From: Fistulifera solaris
Taxonomy: Eukaryota
NCBI GenBank assembly: GCA_030295235.1
Contig: AP026131.1
Location: forward strand, 930,001-994,000
Length of the DNA: 64,000 nucleotides
Reading direction: 5' to 3'
Part shown: positions 24,823 to 33,416 of the stretch, piece after piece
Layout of the letters: every line of letters begins with the position of its first letter
How positions within the stretch are numbered: position 1 is the stretch's first letter
Notes under the pieces: model-generated
The model's input: the letters and a program-made list of their open reading frames with translations, nothing else
What the model was told of the DNA's origin: nothing
Database searches by the model: none
Made by a program: the position numbers and the translations under genes

Positions 24823-27800
24823 ATGACAGGCGATGCGGATGAAGCGGCTCAGCGAGGAAATTTGGTAAAGTCGGTATCACGAGATGCGGAAGTATCTGTT
24901 TCTAGCGCTCAAACGCAAACCCGGTTCAGCTTTTACAATGCGGAGGAATTTACGACAAGGGAAGAACCCAATCCGCATCGTTTTAATTTTTATAATGAGG
25001 AGCTGCAAAGACAAGTTGCAGCACAAACGGCATCTAAATTGGAAGAACCTTTGATTCAAGCATCCGAGGGACACGCAACTTTGAACTCTCCGCAGAATAA
25101 TCCGGATTCAATCGAAATACTTCGCTCTCTCCAACAGCATGAACAGCAAAGGTTAACAGTACTCGACAATCATGTCGATGAAGCGTTAGAGGTGTCTACT
25201 GAGAAGTCGAATCCTTATGAAGATGCAATAAAAGAAGCTCTGGCGCTCTTGAGAAAACATCGCGACCCGAGTAGCTCTGCTAGCTCACTGGATGGTCACA
25301 TGACGACGAGTTCCTTCTCTCCTTCCCTGTCAGGCAGACCCGCTGCCATTGATACCAATCCAATCGGTCACAATCTAGATCACGGAGACAATTTATTCAA
25401 CCCGACAACAACAAATTTGCCACTGTATTCACAATCCACTGCTTTAGATGCGGCGTTCTACCCATCGACGGATGTCATGACGCCCGGATCGATCTCAGCT
25501 CCTGGTGACGCCTACCAGGCGGAAATCGAGGCTCGTCGACGACAACGACAGGAACGCATGGCGAAATATGCTACCCGATTGGCGGAACTCAAGCAAGAGA
25601 ATGGCACGGTCGCGTCGTCATCGTCGCAGCTCGAGAGAACGGAAGACGAAAGTGAACATTTAGGTCTTGTTGCACCAACAACACCCGCTTTAGAACTTTC
25701 TTCTTCCGTATATCGACTGCCATCGCAACCATACGTTGCTTTTCCTTCGAACCAAATACCACACGTTGCATCTGGGTTGACAACAACAAGTCGGATAGAC
25801 GGATATCATCAACAACAAGTTCAACTCGGGGTAGAAAAGGTGCTGCTCGCTATTCTTGACCGGGCCAATAGCGGAAGTTTAGGACAGCAGCAAACGTCAC
25901 CTTTGACGAGTGGATGGCGTCAGGAAGAGAAAAAGTCACGTTCCGATGAAGCTGAACCTATTCGACAACGACAAGACGACGATGACGCCGATCCACTTGT
26001 TCAGGCAATGTCTGAACTTTTACAAAAGCCACCAGCTCCAATGTTTACGGATGATTTACCGTTGATGGAAAGAGAGGAATTGGAGCAAACTCTGGCTCTT
26101 GATTCCTTCAATGAAACCACGTTAAACGCAGGTGAAATTGCTGAGGAATCACCAACTGTACATATCCCGGAAGAAGCATTTCCTTCTGAATTGAGGCTAA
26201 CACACTCTGGCCCGGGACCGGAAGCTCACGCCGAACTGGATCGCATGATTGAAGAAGTCCTTAAGAAGAATTCCGAAGGCGCTGACAGCTGTGACTCCTC
26301 AGATATGTATACTTCTGATCCGATCAACCAACGAGTAAGGCGAATTTTAACAGCTAGCAGCAGTAACGAAGTATCTGATGGTAATCCTAACCAAGAAGAA
26401 AGCGAAAGTCTTTTGCAAGATGAAGAAGATTCCGAGATTCATGATTCAGCAGGGCTTATTGATTCGATAGACGATGTTCTCGACGTCGGAAGCGACAATG
26501 AGAATCGCTACGACGAAGAGACAAATTCTGAAATTGATACCGACAATCCAACTGTTATGAATGGTGTACTGGGGCCCCTTAGTACATTGGCTGGTGGGAC
26601 GACAGGAGTGGTGCTTGAATCAGACTCTTCGGAGGAGTCTCCGTCTCTTTTGACTCAATTTCTGCCGTGGCGCGAAACTTTGTTGCTGGAGTCTCGAGCA
26701 GTAGTGATAGTGAAGCATGTTCATCTGGTACAGAATCTTCTGGAGCACAGAGCAAAGAGAAGTCCCGGACGTACGAGCTGATGAATACATTGTTTGCTCA
26801 TTTAATCTCAGCAGAACTTCCTAAAACCAAGAAAAGATTGTATGACCGGATTCCTTCGTGGGACGAATCAAACCCAGACGAACTGGGATATCGTGTCATT
26901 CGGCTTACGTCGGAACAATTAGAAGAAGTACAAGAGGAGTATGAACTTGAAATGCGTGCGCGTCGAACAGAAAAAGAAAAGCTCGGAGACAATTCATTGG
27001 AAGATGACTTAGAGCACGCAGAGGAGCAGTTGAAAATAGAGGAACGTCTTAAGAAAGCAAATGAGAGTGATGATGGCTTCTTTTCTGCCTGGTCAAAAGA
27101 TTTTAAAGAGTCGGACTGTTTGCAAGAGTTTCCAGGGGTCAAGCCAACTGGTCGCGGTGAGATGGGCGATTTGGAGTTTTTCTGTCTCCCCATTATCTTC
27201 AAATCACACGTTACAGGTTTCGAACCCACGAAAGATATCTATCTTGAAGCAGGAAATATCGTAGCGGGACAGTATCTTGTTGAAGGAGAAATGGGCAGCG
27301 CAGCTTTCAGTACAGCCTACCGGTGTATTGATCTTAATTCAGTGGGCGACGGTCCTGATGGGCATGAAGAAGTGTGCCTGAAAGTTATCAAGAACACTAA
27401 AGATTTCTTTGATCAATCGTTAGACGAGATAAAGATTTTGGAGTTACTGCGACAGACTGGTATGTGTGATCAGAAAAACATCTTGAAGATGAAAACCTTT
27501 TTCTACCATCGCGAGCATTTAATCATTGTCACCGAACTTCTTCGACAAAATCTATTTGAATTCGGAAAGTTTATTACTGACAATGACGAAGAGCCATACT
27601 TCACGATTCCCAGGTTGAGCTATATCACTCGACAATGTCTGGTTGCTCTTGATTTCGTTCACAAGATTGGGCTTGTTCATTCCGACATCAAACCGGAAAA
27701 CATTCTTTTGGCTAGCTACAGTCGAGCAAAGATAAAAGTGATTGATTTTGGAAGCTCTTGCTATTTGACCGACAGGCAATCGTCGTATATCCAATCTCGA

Positions 27801-28369
27801 TCCTACAGAGCACCTGAGGTGGTACTTGGCCTGCCATACGACGGGAGAATCGACATTTGGTCGCTAGGGTGTGTAGTCGCAGAGATGTTTACAGGAGAGG
27901 TAACATTTCAGAATGATTCTGTTGTTTCAATGTTGAGTCGAATTGAAGCGATTTGCGGTCCTGTTCCAAAGCGAATGATCAGTCAGGGTCGCCAGAGCGG
28001 TACATTCTACACCTCTAGTTGTTTACTCTACGAAAAGGTGAAGAAATCACGGAAAGATAGCGATGACTCGCAAAGTGGCAATGACAGGAGTTCAAACGGA
28101 AGCGAGAGCGAAAGTTATCATTTCGACATATTTCAGCCCAAAAGACTACTCTTGCCGCCCGATTAGGCTTTGCTGCAGATCTGATGCGTGACTATGATGC
28201 TGGAAAACAGTTATCGCGAGAGCAGAAAAAACAAGCTGTGTTTGTTGATTTCGTTCGCTCCTTGCTGACCATTGATCCAGAAAAGCGACCAACCGCCGAA
28301 GAAGCCTTGAAGCACCCATGGATGGAATACGCGGCAACTTTGACTGAAGCGGACATAAAGTATCCTTGA
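24823..28369 (+). CDS. CMGC/DYRK-family serine-threonine kinase with long disordered N-terminus
   Basis: GSAAFSTAY, VCLKVIKNTKDFFDQSLDEI, HSDIKPENIL, IDFGSSC, SYIQSRSYRAPE; indels near 26655 and 28140. Confidence 0.92.
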
Positions 28370-28486
28370 TGGATGATTTGTCAATAAAACGTAATTAGGA
28401 ATTGTTGCCTAGCACACATTTAGTAGATTACCAATGAATTCTAGAGTTAAACATTGCGTTCTTGTTTACAAAGACCGCAAGATCGT

Positions 28487-30087
28487 TTACACCGCACCAT
28501 GGGTCATCATTACATTCGCAACACGCATGAAGCCAAGAACGGTTGCCCCCGTGTAAAGGTCGCCACGGGCATTGAATTCAGCTGCAGTTCGTTTGACATC
28601 TTGGTAGATTCTACCGACGTGTTTTGCGAGTTCTTCATCTGTTGCTCCAGTTCCCATTGCATGCACAATGCACGAACCGGTAAGTGTCATGACGTGCGGT
28701 CCGTATAACATGCCGCGTTTCTTAAGAGCGGCGCGTCCTTTGCTCGTGACACAAGATTGCGCACCTTCAATGATGCCTTGGCAGCCATTGTCAGCTAGCT
28801 TATTCACAGCAGCTTCGTCAATACTGTCCATGCCTTCACAGGGAAAGCAAAGATCACAAGCGATGTCCATAATATTCTCCGGATTATTGAACTCTGCGGT
28901 TGTGCTGGAGATGATGTATCGTCCTAGCAATGCCCCTCTCTCCTCCTTAATTTTGTTGACCGTCTTTAAGCTACCTTCCGAGATACCATCCGGTTCGTAC
29001 ACATGCCCACTTGCATCAGAAAATGTGATCGGAATCGCCCCAAATGATAACAATTTGGCAGCCAGGGAGCGAGCAACTTTGTCGCTGCCCATGATCAAGC
29101 ACTGCTTGCCTTTCAAACTGTCTTTCTTGTCTTGAAGCATCTCATTCGCAAAGTGTGCAATTCCGAATCCAGGCGACTGCGAACAAATACATACAATGAG
29201 CGATGACGAAAATAAAAGCCTGTACAAGTTGTAATGCTCACCTCAGGGAAGTCGGCTGACATGAAGTAGCGCCCCGCGACGCTGGCTTTCGGGTTGATAC
29301 GCTTGTACTGGCCAAACATGTAGCCCATTTCTTCCTCCGAAACGCCGCTACCCATGTAAGGGAAATCCTGTTCAGGACCCAAATACTTGGATAGTTCTGT
29401 CATATACGATTGACAGAAGCGCTGCAACTCAGCTTCAGATTTGTCGAGAGGGTTAAAGTCAGAGCCACCCACGGCAGCCCCGGCATCGAAGCCCGTCAAT
29501 GCGTTCGAGAAGACGGTGTTGAAGCTCAGAGACTTGATAATCGAATTGGTGATATGGGAGCCAAAGTGCAAGCTTCCCTGGTAAGGACCAAGAGAACTAC
29601 TGTACTGAATACGGTAACCTCGGTTCATTCGGATAACGCCGGTATCATCAATCCACGAGACACGAAATTGAATGTAGCGTTCCGGCTCCATGAGCGTTTT
29701 TGCCAAGAAAGCATACTTCGGATTTCTGTCAAAAACCGGAGATAGACACATCATTTTGCTCGAAATAGAATCGATAAACTCGCGATCGTACAAGTCACGA
29801 CGTTTGGCTTCTTTGATGAGGAGCTGGGCCGCCTCATTTCCTGTTTTGAAGCGGACGTCACCCTGACGACGAAACAAAGGCTTGTTGCGCCATCCTTTGC
29901 TGATTTTCATCGTCTGGTGGACACCTTCTTCAGAAGTGACCAACGATTTACGAGGACTATCCTGCAGGGACGACGAAAAGCTTCGTGACGCTGCCGGCAT
30001 GGTCGGCATCGCGGTGGACAGCGCAACTCGCTTGGTCGCGACGGATCTGGCGGTAGCGATTCGCAAAGCGGCTCGCGAGAACATCAT
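28487..30087 (-). CDS. Mitochondrial NADP-glutamate dehydrogenase homolog with substituted catalytic residues (probable pseudoenzyme)
   Basis: Mitochondrial-type presequence; EPERYIQFRVSWIDDTG..NRGYRIQYSSSLGPY, RFCQSYMTEL, GYMFGQYKRI, C-terminal GFMRVANVMMTHGAV; in-frame intron 29177-29241. Confidence 0.88.
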
Positions 30088-30515
30088 TGTCACAGCAGTA
30101 ATACAATACTTTGCTGAAGGGTTGAGTGTAAGCAAACGGTTGCTTCTGGAATAAAGTTATTGTTCGATTTTCTCGTTGCAAAACGCCATGTGAATGTGAT
30201 GGCACTCCTATCCTTGAGAGCCGGAGGTTGTCGAGACGCTTGTCGCTTGTCGCTTGTCTAAACTGGGCACTGCGCTGCTCTGCTTGTTCGGTTTCTGAAC
30301 GGATGTACACTCCAAGCTATAGAGTATAAAAATCTTCGCTTCTTTTTGTGGAAAGAAGGTACAGTAGTCGTATGTAGCTTCTATACTGGCTTAACCAGAA
30401 TAGAAGATCCGTTGGTCACGAGTTGAGAGTATCCTAGATTCTAGATGAGGCAACCACTTTTTATTACTGTTAGTTCGAACCCTCTCGATATTGCTTCTTC
30501 TAAACAAACCGTCTT

Positions 30516-33416
30516 CTATATTTTACCATGAGCAAGATCATCGTAATTGTCAATGCGGACTGCTCCGACCGCTTCCATGTCAACGATTCGCGTAAAGGAA
30601 CGAATCGGAGTGCTCGACAAAATTCCCATCCAAACATCGATTGCACTGGATGACGAAACAAAGGTCAGATCGATGAATGTGCAGCCAATCTTCACTATCG
30701 TACACTTACCTAGGATCTCGTGGTTTCGGTAAAACCGGAAGAGCCTTTTCTCCATTTTTCTTTTCGACCCAGTCATCCCCCGACGCAAAATCGTCGCCGT
30801 TAGGTTCATCATATCGTTCTTGTCGCTCCTGTGGAAACTTCTCAATGTCTTCGGCCACACCTTCTTCGGGTACTCCGAATCCATTGTGATCCGCATCGAC
30901 GTCAGCCTCGTCAGCTTCTTCGGCGACACCGTCGTCCGTTGCCTTGTCTTCATCCACTTTACTATCCTCACCTTCCTCGACCTCTTCGAGACGCCTTGCA
31001 TCAGTCTCATCAAGACGACGCTGTTCTTCTGCAGAAGGGTTCCCTTTGCGATCAAGCTCGTTGGATCCGACATCACTGTTCTCGTCAATCGTCTCAACTT
31101 CTTCGCCAATCCACCAGGGTTCATGGCCGGTCTTTTTGGCAATTACCCGGCTCCACATATCGTGCAACCCAGAAATGAATTCGAACGCGGCTTCATCCGA
31201 CGACGAACCCCATTGAAGAACTTCTCCGTATATATCGCATCGAAATAGACGCCCATCATCGTTACTCAATGAATGAACGATTAGCGAAGAATCTATACGC
31301 TGGGAGAACCCGTCGCCGGACATTTCATCCACCAATGCGATCCGAACCATACGGTACGCGTGATGCTGTACTTGATCCTGCCAACTCGTCACATTCCACC
31401 GTATGTTAGATATATGGCCTTCCTTGCGTTTCCCGACAAGCATAGCAGTAGTACCCCGGATATTCTTTTCGTTAAATGGCTGCATTCCACTTTCTTTGAG
31501 AAGCTTCGGTACACTGTTCAAAATGATATCAGGATCGCAGTAAATAGCTTGTTTGGTGGCTACACTAAAGAACAATCCCGGGGATAGTTTTGGAAGCAGC
31601 ATTAAAGCATCGTTCTTCCTCGAATGTTCCGAAAGGTGGACCGGAATCAAACGCCAGAAACCATGCTGTACGATGTGGTCATCGCCCTTTAAGGATAACA
31701 GCTTCTGGTACAGGACACTGCGTTCGGAAACAAAAGCGACATTGCAATTACCGCTTCCTCCGTTGCTATCTTCAACAAAAGGATGTGACTTATCCGACAC
31801 ACTCACCACTGTGGATGGGAGTAACGATAAATCATCTTCCAGCGCAATCGTGTACATGACGGCTCGACATCCGCTCGTGAGCGCTCTCGTGTACGTGAGG
31901 ACATCGTCCCAGAAGGTAGGAATGCACTGCGATTCGTGAGCACATTCCGAGGCACACGGAAAGACCGGCGTCCCTTTCAGACAAGCTGTATCGTATCGCG
32001 AACACGAAATGGACCCCTTACTAGCAATATGCCGCGATGGAGCAAACAGTTTACTGTTCTCCGCGGGTCTTGAGCCATAGGGGTACGTTCGTTCGTAATG
32101 CCAGGCCAGAAGCTGTTCCAGTCCATCCTTTAACTCGACTCGAGGAGAAAAACCCAACAGCGACTCGACCCGAGACATTGAGGCAAACGATGCCGTCGGC
32201 GGCTCTTGCGTCGCATCTTCAACTTGAGGGACACCAGGAAACAAATCCACTAAATGCTTTCCAATGGTTCGTAGCGTGGTCCCTTGACCCGATCCGACAT
32301 TAATCACGACGGGTCGCGGTTCACTTTTCCTACTTTCACTGCTCAACAGGGGTCGGAATTGCATAGCCGACATGACGGCATCGATAGCATCATCAATGTA
32401 TAAATAATCTCGAATATCGTCCAGGTCGGACATGGCATACGGATATTTCGCTTTATCGTCGGGAAGAATGATCGGTGACTCACCCGCGACGATGCGTTCG
32501 GCCATTTCAAATGTCGGACTACCGGGAAGACCCCAAGGACCGTAAATATGAAAGAATCGAAGGCCCACGGAATAAATACCATCCATTTCATAATAAGTTC
32601 GTGCCATGATCTCATCCAGTAGTTTTGAAACGCCGACCAAAGTTGCGGGCGTGGTGACGGGATCTTGCTCTCGAAACGGAGGTTGAAATGCGTCATGATT
32701 CCCGTTGGCGGACGGCGCCAACGTGGTATTGGCTTTGTGATTGTAGATTTCGGACGAAGACGCGTAAACGAAATGCGGTTGTCGTCGTTCCGGGTGTTTC
32801 TTTGTAAACGACTTGATTTGTTCCAAAATCGCTTCCATCATGCCCGCTTTCGGTTGTCCCTTAATACGTGGTATTATTTGCAGCTTTTGCTCGTCCACTT
32901 GTTCTTTTCATTCACATAACCGCGATGATAATGATCGGCAAAATGCACGACATGACTAATATCCGAATGTTGTTGAAAAATATGCGCGAGCACGGGAACT
33001 TCTCCCGAATCGTAATATTCCGGAATGGACGGTCGTAAATCGACGCGATAAAACGATGCCGTGACACCCAAGGTTTGTAAGACGCGAAAAGCGCGTTGTC
33101 GCTTGAATTCAAAGAGAGCCAAATCTTGATCGGTGCGGATTCCCATGGGGAGTGACGGTCCCAACGTCCCAAAGCCCTTGTCCATCGAATCTATGCAGAT
33201 GATCTTTTTCGGTCGGTACGTTCGATACAAGGCAATCGCTAGTTCGGAACCAAGAAAACCTGCGGCGCCGGTAATGACAATAACGGATTCGGGGCCTAAT
33301 GCGTCGGCTGGAACTTCATGACTGGCGGAACGAAGAAGAAGGCCGACCAGAAGAAGCAGAAACAACCCCAGTTTACTCGCCGAAAATCGGCGATTTGAGC
33401 TTGCTGGGTGTCTCAT
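30516..33416 (-). CDS. UDP-glucuronate 4-epimerase-like SDR domain fused to a DUF616 (TOD1/MUCI70) glycosyltransferase-like domain
   Basis: Signal anchor; ITGAAGFLGS, YASSSEIY, GLRFFHIYGPWG, RDYLYIDD; C-terminal LPKLSPGLFF..AIYCD..FRCDIYGEV. Indel near 32905; intron ~30647-30708. Confidence 0.75.

What the first reader, a model, noticed from the sequence alone, without database searches (positions are those of the whole stretch)
28487..30087. Intact mitochondrial glutamate dehydrogenase homolog lacking every key catalytic residue
Seen: a full-length, frameshift-free, spliced gene. Known: NADP-GDH motifs GPYKGGLRF, QIFKNAL, GGGKGG and VPAGDIG carry the substrate-binding and catalytic residues (E. 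coli GdhA K92, K116, K128, D168). Here they read GPYQGSLHF, TVFSNAL, GAAVGG and FPYMGSG. The TGK..GGS..RPEATGYG loop becomes AGRYFMSADFPESPGFG, and the dinucleotide loop GSGNVA becomes GSDKVA, while the surrounding scaffold residues are well preserved. Inference: selective loss of the active site with a retained fold points to a pseudoenzyme, for example a regulatory subunit of a hetero-hexameric GDH or a scaffold in diatom mitochondrial nitrogen metabolism. A new substrate is also possible.
Basis: partly seen in the sequence, partly recalled or inferred. Interest (0 to 1): 0.75.

Follow-up and report, generated by a model that had tools for sequence, protein, structure and literature searches.

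The report
Catalytically dead glutamate dehydrogenase, stramenopile-wide
A diatom gene labelled glutamate dehydrogenase is expressed and kept by selection but lacks the residues the reaction needs, and the same dead version occurs in diatoms, brown algae and oomycetes, so it must do something other than the textbook reaction.

Summary
A two-exon gene on the minus strand (28487-30087, one 65-nt GT..AG intron) encodes a 511-aa GdhA-type protein. It differs at 12 residues, with no indels, from a Fistulifera solaris protein named NADP-GDH. By alignment to E. coli GdhA, K92, K116, K128 and D168 read Q, S, V and G.

The gene is not decaying. Intron-less contigs with a T-run (poly-A) end exist. A second copy differs at 26 synonymous and 4 non-synonymous sites. 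The AlphaFold model is confident and matches solved GDHs (TM up to 0.93).

The losses are ancient, not strain-private. All 111 ochrophyte and 8 oomycete relatives examined lack K128 and D168. They belong to a stramenopile family marked by a conserved basic N-terminal extension that ordinary GDHs lack. Three labyrinthulid-like members still keep K128 and D168.

Inside the clade the former pocket sites vary more than the average column. Forty-eight family-specific sites are at least 90% conserved.

Best reading: a mitochondrion-targeted pseudoenzyme that still self-assembles and acts by binding. Its partner is unknown, and a Thermus-like hetero-hexamer could not be tested.

Nine literature searches found no description. 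This scan had noted dead GDHs in bacteria before, but no look-alike of this protein.

The parts
28424..30189 (-). Approximate transcript extent (5'UTR about 100 nt, 3'UTR 63 nt)
   Evidence: run contigs reach 30186 (X1) and 30189 (X2). The X1 contig carries a loose end of T's before 28424 on the + strand, which is a poly(A) tail on the minus-strand RNA.
29242..30087 (-). CDS exon 1, residues 1-282
   Evidence: ATG at 30087. Pfam ELFV_dehydrog_N at 1e-36.
29177..29241 (-). Intron, 65 nt, GT..AG
   Evidence: sequence; contigs in 3 of 4 runs join 29176 to 29242 and skip exactly 65 nt (ends CT..AC on the + strand); the spliced product has the same length as P0001 with no indel.
28487..29176 (-). 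CDS exon 2, residues 283-511 plus TAA
   Evidence: Pfam ELFV_dehydrog at 1.2e-35.
29956..30087 (-). Residues 1-44: presumed mitochondrial presequence (in the first 45 residues: 6 R/K, 1 D/E, 22 S/T/A)
   Evidence: composition; pLDDT below 50 for residues 1-44; of 124 family members with a complete N-terminus, 120 have at least 2 R/K in the first 25 residues and 86 have no acidic residue there. Targeting is inferred, not shown.
29794..29925 (-). Residues 55-98: family-specific N-terminal extension (GVH ... WRNKPLFRRQGDVRFKTGNEAAQLL ...), absent from canonical GDH
   Evidence: W66, P70, L71, R73, R74, G76, D77, F80, G83, E85 and A86 are at least 91% conserved in 131 family sequences and fall in gaps in canonical GDH. 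Mean pLDDT is 80 for residues 61-70 and 93 for 71-80.
29302..29685 (-). Domain I (ELFV_dehydrog_N, residues 135-262), holding the four replaced catalytic/substrate positions
29578..29580 (-). Q170 in place of E. coli K92 (substrate-binding Lys)
   Evidence: In 111 ochrophytes: E 73, A 15, Q 7, S 7, others 9.
29506..29508 (-). S194 in place of K116 (substrate-binding Lys)
   Evidence: S in 83 of 111 ochrophytes; R in 8 of 8 oomycetes.
29470..29472 (-). V206 in place of catalytic K128 (GGGKGG reads GAAVGG)
   Evidence: V in 86 of 111 ochrophytes and no K in any.
29350..29352 (-). G246 in place of D168 (PAGDIG reads PYMGSG)
   Evidence: G in 111 of 111 ochrophytes and 8 of 8 oomycetes.
28496..29170 (-). 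Domain II (ELFV_dehydrog, Rossmann-type; residues 285-509)
29072..29089 (-). GSDKVA: the Gly-rich dinucleotide loop with its second Gly replaced by Asp
   Evidence: D occurs at this position in only 3 of 111 ochrophytes; G in 102.
28901..28996 (-). Residues 343-374, a family-specific conserved segment (E..KIKEERGALLGRYIISST)
   Evidence: E343, I358, R362, A364, G367, R368, S373 and T374 are at least 91% conserved in 131 family sequences and occur in at most 30% of canonical ones.
28559..28585 (-). Residues 480-488, a family-specific conserved segment (A.EFNARGD)

Best explanation
This is a functional nuclear gene of a Fistulifera-type diatom. It encodes a GdhA-derived protein that can no longer carry out the glutamate dehydrogenase reaction.

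The protein belongs to a stramenopile-wide family defined by a conserved, basic N-terminal extension placed in front of the GDH fold. In the ochrophyte + oomycete branch of that family the catalytic Lys and Asp and both substrate-binding Lys residues are gone.

Proposed working:
- The about 44-residue presequence takes the protein into the mitochondrion (inferred).
- The intact domain-I core lets it self-assemble like a GDH (model support only).
- It acts by binding and not by catalysis, as a scaffold or regulator. The binding would use the surfaces under family-specific constraint: the N-terminal arm, residues 343-374 and residues 480-488 (inferred).

The partner is unknown.
For: Shown:
- Gene structure, and identity to a named F. 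solaris protein (12 substitutions, no indel).
- K92/K116/K128/D168 read Q/S/V/G.
- Contigs lacking the intron occur in 3 of 4 runs, and one has a T-run end. The runs' kind is only guessed as RNA.
- Of 30 coding differences to the second copy, 26 are synonymous and 4 are not. With 343 synonymous and 1190 non-synonymous sites this gives pN/pS of about 0.04.
- 80 of 82 long relatives lack the GGGKGG Lys. D168->G holds in 111 of 111 ochrophytes and 8 of 8 oomycetes.
- 32 of 58 canonical near-invariant columns are kept.
- AlphaFold gives pLDDT 89.2 and pTM 0.86. Foldseek gives 9yis_A at E = 1.2e-41, and TM 0.92-0.93 normalised by target length to 5gud_A and 1aup.
- With 18 pocket columns masked, ochrophyte + oomycete + labyrinthulid-like sequences form one clade of 165 tips with support 0.984.
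- All members share the N-terminal motif, which is absent from the canonical and plant sequences aligned.

Arguing for 'dead' over 'retooled':
- The former invariant pocket sites have mean entropy 1.52, against 1.17 for all 399 columns. 93% of random draws of the same size were lower.
- The nicotinamide-side motifs PCATQNE, EGANMP and KAANAGGV are degenerate and variable in 91 diatom/bolidophyte sequences.
- Fistulifera has Asp at the second Gly of GxGxxA.

Arguing for a new binding role: 48 sites are at least 90% conserved in 131 family members and occur in at most 30% of canonical ones. They cluster in the N-terminal arm and two domain-II segments.

Self-assembly: two copies of residues 45-511 scored 0.48 against a best control of 0.00.
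- The mark was reached by 21 of 30 microbial proteins solved as pairs of one chain and by 0 of 23 solved as single chains.
- On eukaryotes it was reached by 17 of 29 pairs, but by only 1 of the 7 with no older solved relative.
- The runs agree in at least 91% of contacts, and the partner's pLDDT is at least 85.
- The interface is strand 134-146 plus the C-terminus.
- GDH hexamers are solved, so this pass may come from memory. It shows likeness, not binding.
Against: - No activity, localisation or partner data exist for any member.
- Loss of the known catalytic set does not prove that all catalysis is absent.
- The Gly-rich loop and the SDxSG motif are still conserved in most members, so dinucleotide binding may persist outside Fistulifera. 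Oomycete members keep most cofactor-side motifs.
- Some replacement residues are fairly fixed in ochrophytes: H at R96 in 99 of 111, M at G167 in 87 of 111, V at K128 in 86 of 111. This could reflect a new pocket and not drift.
- Three labyrinthulid-like members keep K116, K128 and D168, so the family is not uniformly dead.
- The grouping of the whole N-extended family (172 tips) has support of only 0.07.
- The positions of the family-specific sites in 3D were not mapped, because no coordinates were available to me.
Confidence: 0.6

Rival explanations
1. Regulatory subunit of a hetero-hexamer. The dead protein co-assembles with a catalytically active GdhA-type GDH of the same compartment and tunes it, as Thermus thermophilus GdhA does for GdhB.
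For: The domain-I core and the modelled dimer interface are intact. A catalytically inactive regulatory GDH subunit is documented in T. thermophilus (passage read in PMC9570180). Foldseek lists that hetero-hexamer, 3aoe_A, at rank 45.
Against: - No canonical paralogue of this organism could be retrieved, so neither co-occurrence nor shared compartment is known.
- Identity to canonical GdhA-type sequences is only 31-37%.
- The family carries its own conserved N-terminal arm and surface segments, which suggests partners other than a GDH.
- The Thermus pair belongs to the short GDH type and is only 20% identical to this model.
Confidence: 0.12
2. Retooled enzyme. The GDH fold now catalyses a different NAD(P)-dependent reaction on an uncharged or basic substrate, using a new residue set.
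For: - All carboxylate-binding lysines were replaced together, and some replacements are fairly fixed in ochrophytes (H at R96 in 99 of 111; G at D168 in 111 of 111).
- The Gly-rich loop is kept in most members.
- Labyrinthulid-like relatives with K92->R/H still keep K128 and D168, which looks like a change of specificity that preceded the loss.
Against: - No polar residue set in the cleft is conserved across ochrophytes and oomycetes.
- Former pocket sites are more variable than average.
- Nicotinamide-side motifs vary freely among diatoms.
- Fistulifera has lost the second Gly of the dinucleotide loop.
Confidence: 0.14
3. Metabolite or redox sensor. The protein still binds NAD(P)(H) or an amino or oxo acid without turnover, and passes that signal on to a partner.
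For: GxGxxA and SDxSG are conserved in most members. The model fits closed, ligand-bound GDH structures best (5gud_A, rmsd 2.1).
Against: Substrate-pocket positions are variable. 8 of 111 ochrophytes, including this gene, lack the second Gly. The motifs that contact the nicotinamide are degenerate in diatoms.
Confidence: 0.1
4. Decaying relic. The gene is a pseudogene-in-waiting with no function.
For: Loss of every known catalytic residue.
Against: - The reading frame is intact.
- Contigs are spliced and poly-A-tailed.
- 26 synonymous against 4 non-synonymous differences between the two copies.
- 45-78% identity over exon 1 across diatoms, brown algae, raphidophytes and oomycetes among the K128-less hits.
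- 48 family-specific sites are conserved at 90% or more.
Confidence: 0.02

Closest known systems
Hexameric NADP-dependent glutamate dehydrogenases of the GdhA type (E. coli GdhA 4fcc/3sbo, Clostridium symbiosum 1bgv/1aup, Corynebacterium glutamicum 5gud, Plasmodium 3r3j/2bma, Babesia 9yis)
   Same: Same two Pfam domains. PDB sequence matches down to 2.7e-49. Same fold, with target-normalised TM up to 0.93. The same inter-subunit strand appears in the modelled dimer. 32 of 58 near-invariant scaffold columns are kept.
   Different: K92, K116, K128 and D168 and their motif neighbours are replaced. The cofactor-side motifs PCATQNE, EGANMP and KAANAGGV are degenerate. There is an extra conserved N-terminal arm and a presequence.
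Thermus thermophilus GdhA, the catalytically inactive regulatory subunit of the GdhA/GdhB hetero-hexamer (PDB 3aoe)
   Same: A GDH-fold subunit that does not catalyse and is kept for a non-catalytic role (PMC9570180, passages read). It is found as a structural match at rank 45.
   Different: It belongs to a different GDH lineage (short type, 20% identity to this model) and is bacterial. The partner here is unknown, and no hetero-oligomer was tested. The leucine site and the AMP-sensor partner were not examined here.
Land-plant 'NADP-specific GDH' of about 637 aa (cluster of P0139; I recall this as the Arabidopsis At1g51720 type, not checked by any search)
   Same: A eukaryotic GdhA-type protein annotated as NADP-GDH that also lacks K128 (GGAAGG) and D168 (SEEMG).
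   Different: It lies outside the stramenopile family in the trees and keeps K116 and R96. It lacks the VHG..RPLFRR arm and instead carries a zf-C17orf113 zinc finger (PF25431, 1e-25). This is probably an independent loss.
Labyrinthulomycete relatives (Hondaea fermentalgiana P0342 and unnamed P0345/P0347/P0348)
   Same: Same family: the shared N-terminal motif, and a common clade with support 0.984.
   Different: They keep K116 and D168. P0345, P0347 and P0348 also keep K128 (GGSKGG), so they may still be enzymes. The family-specific domain-II segments of the ochrophyte/oomycete branch are not shared.

Membership tests
ELFV (Glu/Leu/Phe/Val) amino-acid dehydrogenase superfamily, GdhA-type | N-terminal dimerisation/substrate domain (PF02812) followed by the Rossmann-type domain (PF00208) | tested here: met
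   E-values 1e-36 and 1.2e-35, both far above the gathering scores. One search gives the same result for P0001.
ELFV (Glu/Leu/Phe/Val) amino-acid dehydrogenase superfamily, GdhA-type | GDH fold | tested here: met
   pLDDT 89.2; 338 PDB matches at E <= 0.001. The listed matches (ranks 1-49) are GDH chains, with target-normalised TM up to 0.93.
Functional glutamate dehydrogenase (EC 1.4.1.2-4) | Catalytic Lys of GGGKGG (E. coli K128) | tested here: not met
   Val206.
Functional glutamate dehydrogenase (EC 1.4.1.2-4) | Asp of PAGDIG (E. coli D168) | tested here: not met
   Gly246. G in 111 of 111 ochrophytes.
Functional glutamate dehydrogenase (EC 1.4.1.2-4) | Carboxylate-binding lysines K92 and K116 | tested here: not met
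   Gln170 and Ser194.
Functional glutamate dehydrogenase (EC 1.4.1.2-4) | Dinucleotide loop GxGxxA/G | tested here: not met
   The loop reads GSDKVA, so the second Gly is Asp. 102 of 111 ochrophyte relatives keep the Gly.
Functional glutamate dehydrogenase (EC 1.4.1.2-4) | Measured oxidative deamination / reductive amination | not testable with these tools
   Needs a recombinant enzyme assay.
Thermus-type regulatory GDH subunit | Forms a hetero-hexamer with an active paralogue | not testable with these tools
   No canonical paralogue of this organism was retrievable.
Thermus-type regulatory GDH subunit | Common descent with T. thermophilus GdhA (short GDH type) | tested here: not met
   short-type GDHs, including 3aoe, score 1e-14 or weaker, against about 1e-49 for the GdhA type; 20% identity.
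N-extended stramenopile GDH-like family (defined here) | Conserved N-terminal arm (D/N/G)VH ... W(R/K)x(K/R)PLFxRxG ... FxxGxxAAxLL in front of helix 1 | tested here: met
   The arm is present in the window protein (residues 55-90).
N-extended stramenopile GDH-like family (defined here) | Falls inside the ochrophyte + oomycete + labyrinthulid clade when the pocket columns are masked | tested here: met
   a 165-tip clade with SH-like support 0.984. The window protein is sister to P0001.

The most novel reading that the evidence does not exclude
The family is a stramenopile-wide mitochondrial protein that gave up catalysis at the base of ochrophytes + oomycetes. It reused the GDH hexamer as a platform. 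The conserved, strongly basic N-terminal arm (KxWRNKPLFRRxGDxRFK) and the new domain-II surfaces would bind a non-GDH partner, possibly nucleic acid or the mitochondrial nucleoid. I recall RNA binding as a reported moonlighting activity of mitochondrial GDHs, but no call checked this. On this reading, 'mitochondrial NADP-GDH' should be removed from diatom, brown-algal and oomycete nitrogen models.
Probability: 0.12. Interest if true: 0.8.

Novelty: new variant of a known kind. Interest (0 to 1): 0.62.

Why it matters
Sources name members of this family 'glutamate dehydrogenase (NADP+)' in diatoms, brown algae, eustigmatophytes and oomycetes (names). Annotation-based nitrogen-metabolism maps and transcriptome readings can therefore count it as a GDH route for ammonium.

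If the protein is dead, that route does not exist through this gene, and expression changes in it mean something else.

The family also offers a graded natural series:
- labyrinthulid-like members that keep K128 and D168;
- oomycetes, which lack the catalytic residues but keep the cofactor-side motifs;
- diatoms, which have lost both.

This series could show how an enzyme fold is turned into a non-catalytic protein. The conserved N-terminal arm gives a concrete handle for finding the new partner.

Tried and rejected
- **Whole genome.** The window's genome is not held. Paralogues in the same organism could not be listed.
- **Sequencing runs.** No RNA holder is listed on record; the four runs are 'RNA?' by guess only.
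- **Canonical GDH of the same organism, needed for a hetero-complex test.**
  - None was named among the 82 hits or the 120 listed of 865.
  - The atlas look-up of P0150, a canonical sequence with a signal-like N-terminus, returned only bacterial clusters.
  - The one complex job was therefore spent on two copies of the protein itself.
- **Names for the unnamed sister groups** (P0101/P0106/P0108/P0373 and P0103/P0198/P0205). Three cluster look-ups gave almost no names. A taxon number printed in one source label resolved to a fungus, which does not fit, so it was not used.
- **Literature.** Nine searches found no paper describing this family as inactive.
- **Phaeodactylum gene J13951.** One paper calls it cytoplasmic (PMC8811913, passages) and another calls it mitochondrial (10.1101/2023.05.31.543125, passages). 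I could not tell whether it belongs to this family. The gene tables in supplements were not consulted, and bioRxiv supplements are closed.
- **PMC1716157** (outline and abstract only) concerns Chlorella GDH and is not relevant.
- **Drosophila Bb8** was considered as an analogue of a structural GDH paralogue and rejected, because it keeps GDH activity (PMC10652781, passages).
- **Earlier notes of this scan.** They hold dead GDHs in bacteria only. There is no look-alike of this protein and no notes on this genome.
- **His174/Glu pair as a new catalytic dyad.** Rejected: the position that is Gln170 here (E. coli K92) is E in only 73 of 111 ochrophytes, and the pair is absent in oomycetes.
Full report
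**1. What is there**

On the minus strand, two open frames abut a 65-nt GT..AG intron. Exon 1 runs 30087..29242 (282 codons), the intron 29241..29177, and exon 2 29176..28487 (229 codons plus TAA). The spliced 511-aa product, computed from the window, has the same length as database protein P0001, which NCBI names 'glutamate dehydrogenase (NADP+) [Fistulifera solaris]'. It differs at 12 positions with no indel, and five of the differences lie in the first 43 residues. The window is therefore a Fistulifera-type diatom, holding either the second gene copy of that species or a close strain.

**2. Family and fold**

Pfam finds ELFV_dehydrog_N (1e-36) in exon 1 and ELFV_dehydrog (1.2e-35) in exon 2. 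Against PDB sequences, exon 1 matches 56 distinct chains at E <= 0.001. The GdhA-type NADP-GDHs score around 1e-45 to 1e-49, and the short-type GDHs around 1e-15 or weaker.

An AlphaFold2 model of P0001 was built with a 99-row alignment. It has mean pLDDT 89.2 and pTM 0.86. Only residues 1-44 and 54-59 fall below 50. Foldseek against the PDB gives GDHs throughout: 9yis_A at E = 1.2e-41, and TM normalised by target length of 0.92 to 5gud_A and 0.93 to 1aup.

**3. The catalytic residues**

The HMMER alignments to Plasmodium and Babesia GDH show the replacements directly:
- GPYKGGLRF reads GPYQGSLHF.
- QIFKNSL reads TVFSNAL.
- GGGKGGSDF reads GAAVGGSDF.
- VPAGDIGV reads FPYMGSGV.

I fetched E. 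coli K-12 gdhA and aligned it. K92, K116, K128 and D168 correspond to Q170, S194, V206 and G246.

In the second domain, PCATQNE reads PCEGMDS, EGANMP reads EGAQSC, KAANAGGVATSG reads HVMTLTGSCIVH, and GSGNVA reads GSDKVA. The roles of these residues (substrate carboxylate binding, catalytic Lys, Asp, nicotinamide-side contacts) are recalled from established knowledge of GDH structures. They were not tested here.

**4. It is a live gene**

Four coded public runs of one study hold the stretch. Their kind is only guessed as RNA.

Laid on the window, contigs in 3 of the 4 runs join 29176 to 29242 and skip exactly the 65-nt intron (ends CT..AC on the + strand). One contig ends in a run of T's before 28424, which is a poly(A) tail 63 nt after the stop. 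The fourth run covers the intron unspliced. Intron-less, A-tailed contigs are what cDNA gives.

The same contigs carry a second version of the gene. Of the 31 differences listed, 30 are in the CDS: 26 are synonymous and 4 are not. The four non-synonymous ones are among the 12 differences to P0001. With 343 synonymous and 1190 non-synonymous sites, pN/pS is about 0.04. The table does not cover every base, so this is a sample and not a full count.

**5. The losses are ancient and shared**

A search restricted to proteins of 495-2000 aa gave 82 hits. 80 of these lack the Lys of GGGKGG; only P0081 and P0082 are canonical.

Named members of the K128-less set include:
- diatoms: Epithemia, Cyclotella, Thalassiosira, Cylindrotheca, Chaetoceros, Leptocylindrus;
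- other ochrophytes: Triparma, Ectocarpus, Undaria, Discosporangium, Heterosigma, Ochromonas;
- oomycetes: Pythium, Phytophthora, Peronospora, Achlya.

A second search added Fragilariopsis, a Nitzschia, Tribonema, Octactis, Nannochloropsis and Aulacoseira (120 of 865 listed). Several members come from transcriptome collections, so orthologues are transcribed in many species.

For column statistics I aligned all proteins then held that were 400-650 aa long, plus the window product and E. coli GdhA. That made 211 sequences; shorter and longer ones were left out. Of 58 columns at least 93% invariant in 28 canonical sequences, 32 keep the same residue in at least 80% of 111 ochrophyte sequences. 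The 18 that changed consensus are E30, A87, K92, G94, R96, E112, Q113, K116, G126, K128, G137, A166, G167, D168, K197, G203, R207 and T211. D168 is Gly in 111 of 111 ochrophytes and 8 of 8 oomycetes, and none has Lys at K128.

**6. A family with its own hallmark**

A 17-sequence alignment and a motif table show that all these proteins have an extra conserved stretch between a variable presequence and the first GDH helix. The stretch reads (D/N/G)VH, then about 8-13 residues, then W(R/K)x(K/R)PLFxRxG, then FxxGxxAAxLL.

It is present in ochrophytes, oomycetes and a clade that includes Hondaea fermentalgiana, a labyrinthulomycete (63% identical to P0113). It is also present in two unnamed groups. 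It is absent from E. coli GdhA, from the five other canonical sequences shown, and from the two plant sequences shown.

I built a tree from 222 sequences and 424 columns, with 18 pocket positions removed so that they could not drive it. Ochrophyte + oomycete + labyrinthulid-like sequences form a clade of 165 tips with SH-like support 0.984. The ochrophyte + oomycete part has 151 tips and support 0.827. Joining the further unnamed group, to make 172 tips, has support of only 0.07. For that group, common origin rests on the shared arm alone.

Inside the labyrinthulid-like clade, P0345, P0347 and P0348 keep K116, K128 (GGSKGG) and D168, with K92 changed to R. The Hondaea group keeps K116 and D168 but has Arg or His at K128. 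The arm therefore came first, and the catalytic residues were lost later. They were lost completely in the lineage leading to ochrophytes and oomycetes.

**7. Dead or retooled?**

In the 111 ochrophyte sequences, the former invariant pocket columns have a mean Shannon entropy of 1.52 bits (16 of the 17 tested had enough occupancy to be scored). The mean for all 399 scored columns is 1.17. 93% of 10,000 random draws of the same size were lower. The pocket has gone from invariant to somewhat more variable than average. The exceptions are G at D168 (fixed) and H at R96 (99 of 111).

The nicotinamide-side motifs are nearly canonical in oomycetes (PCAIQND, EGANxP). They are many-formed in the 91 diatom/bolidophyte sequences. 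The second Gly of GxGxxA is replaced in 8 of 111, including Asp in this gene.

By contrast, 48 positions are at least 90% conserved in 131 family members and carried by at most 30% of canonical sequences. They cluster in the arm (66-98), in 119-130, in 343-374 (ERGAxLGRYIIxSTT) and in 480-488 (EFNxRGD). Constraint has moved from the cleft to other parts of the protein. I take this as the signature of a binding protein and not of a new enzyme, but it is an inference.

**8. Assembly and location**

Two copies of residues 45-511 were folded together. The score was 0.48, with the best of 3 controls at 0.00.
- The mark was reached by 21 of 30 microbial proteins solved as pairs of one chain and by 0 of 23 solved as single chains.
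- On eukaryotes it was reached by 17 of 29 pairs, but by only 1 of 7 without an older solved relative.
- The runs agree in at least 91% of contacts, and the partner's pLDDT is at least 85.
- The interface is strand 134-146 with residues 127-131, 151-156 and the C-terminus.

Solved GDH hexamers exist, so the pass may come from memory. It shows that the protein still looks able to pair like a GDH, not that it does.

The first 45 residues hold 6 R/K, 1 D/E and 22 S/T/A and are predicted disordered. Of 124 family members with a complete N-terminus, 120 have at least two R/K in the first 25 residues and 86 have no acidic residue there. This fits a mitochondrial presequence. No targeting predictor was available, so the location is inferred.

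**9. Comparison with what is known**

The protein is a member of the ELFV/GdhA-type superfamily by domains and fold. It fails every sequence criterion of a working GDH.

The closest functional precedent is T. thermophilus GdhA. It is described as a catalytically inactive subunit that acts as the regulatory subunit for activation by leucine in a GdhA/GdhB hetero-hexamer (PMC9570180, passages read). That protein is bacterial, belongs to the short GDH type, and has a known partner. Here the lineage, the compartment and the added arm all differ, and no partner is known.

Land plants have a separate GdhA-type protein of about 637 aa that also lacks K128 and D168. It carries a zinc finger and lies outside this family in the trees.

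Nine full-text searches found no paper that describes the stramenopile proteins as inactive. The library lacks most subscription journals, so this is not proof that nothing is in print. Earlier notes of this scan record dead GDH paralogues in bacteria but nothing resembling this protein.

**10. Verdict**

This is not a private oddity of one diatom. It is one member of an old, conserved, expressed family of GDH-fold proteins that lack the GDH catalytic set and carry a family-specific N-terminal arm.

My confidence by claim:
- It is not a glutamate dehydrogenase: about 0.9.
- It is non-catalytic altogether: about 0.7.
- It works as a self-assembling binding protein in mitochondria (the full statement): about 0.6.

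What it binds is unknown.

Noticed in passing
P0139 and its cluster (209 members, land plants); not in the window: Land-plant proteins of about 637 aa named 'NADP-specific glutamate dehydrogenase' also lack the catalytic Lys (GGAAGG) and the Asp (LPSEEMGV), and K92 is Arg. They carry a zf-C17orf113 zinc finger (PF25431, 1e-25) in front of the GDH domains. In the trees they lie outside the stramenopile family, so this looks like a separate loss.
   Followed up: partly
P0345, P0347, P0348 (unnamed, in the clade with Hondaea fermentalgiana P0342): These family members have the N-terminal arm but still keep K116, K128 and D168 (GGSKGGSDF, ..DLNV), with K92 changed to Arg. They may be the last catalytically competent members and would date the loss.
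   Followed up: partly
window 28487-30087, contigs of runs X1-X4: Two versions of the gene are present in the same runs: contigs identical to the window, and contigs with 5-8 differences per 130-250 nt. The four non-synonymous differences are among the 12 differences to database protein P0001. Both copies therefore appear to be represented in what look like cDNA contigs.
   Followed up: partly
P0009, P0019, P0022, P0028, P0029: Five database relatives carry 20-60-residue insertions exactly where the window's intron sits (between ..FPE and SPGFG). They look like read-through of an unspliced intron in gene models or transcripts. This suggests the intron position is conserved among diatoms.
   Followed up: no
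P0185/P0251/P0252 and P0162/P0193: A few otherwise canonical-looking GdhA-type proteins outside the family have also lost K128 alone or with D168. P0185/P0251/P0252 read GGSNGG with G at D168; P0162/P0193 read GGAAGG with PAGDIG kept. These are sporadic, independent losses in unnamed organisms.
   Followed up: no
window 26619-28369 (+) and 30706-32907 (-): The neighbours are ordinary. Upstream is a protein kinase (Pkinase, 1.8e-39) that ends about 120 nt from the GDH-like gene's 3' end, and the two converge. Beyond the 5' end, on the minus strand, is a 733-aa ORF with a partial NAD-dependent epimerase/dehydratase domain (2e-13).
   Followed up: partly
literature: PMC8811913 and 10.1101/2023.05.31.543125: Phaeodactylum gene Phatr3_J13951 is called a cytoplasmic GDH in one paper. 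In the other it is called a mitochondrial GDH with loss-of-function variants in some accessions. Whether it is the orthologue of this dead family could not be settled here.
   Followed up: partly
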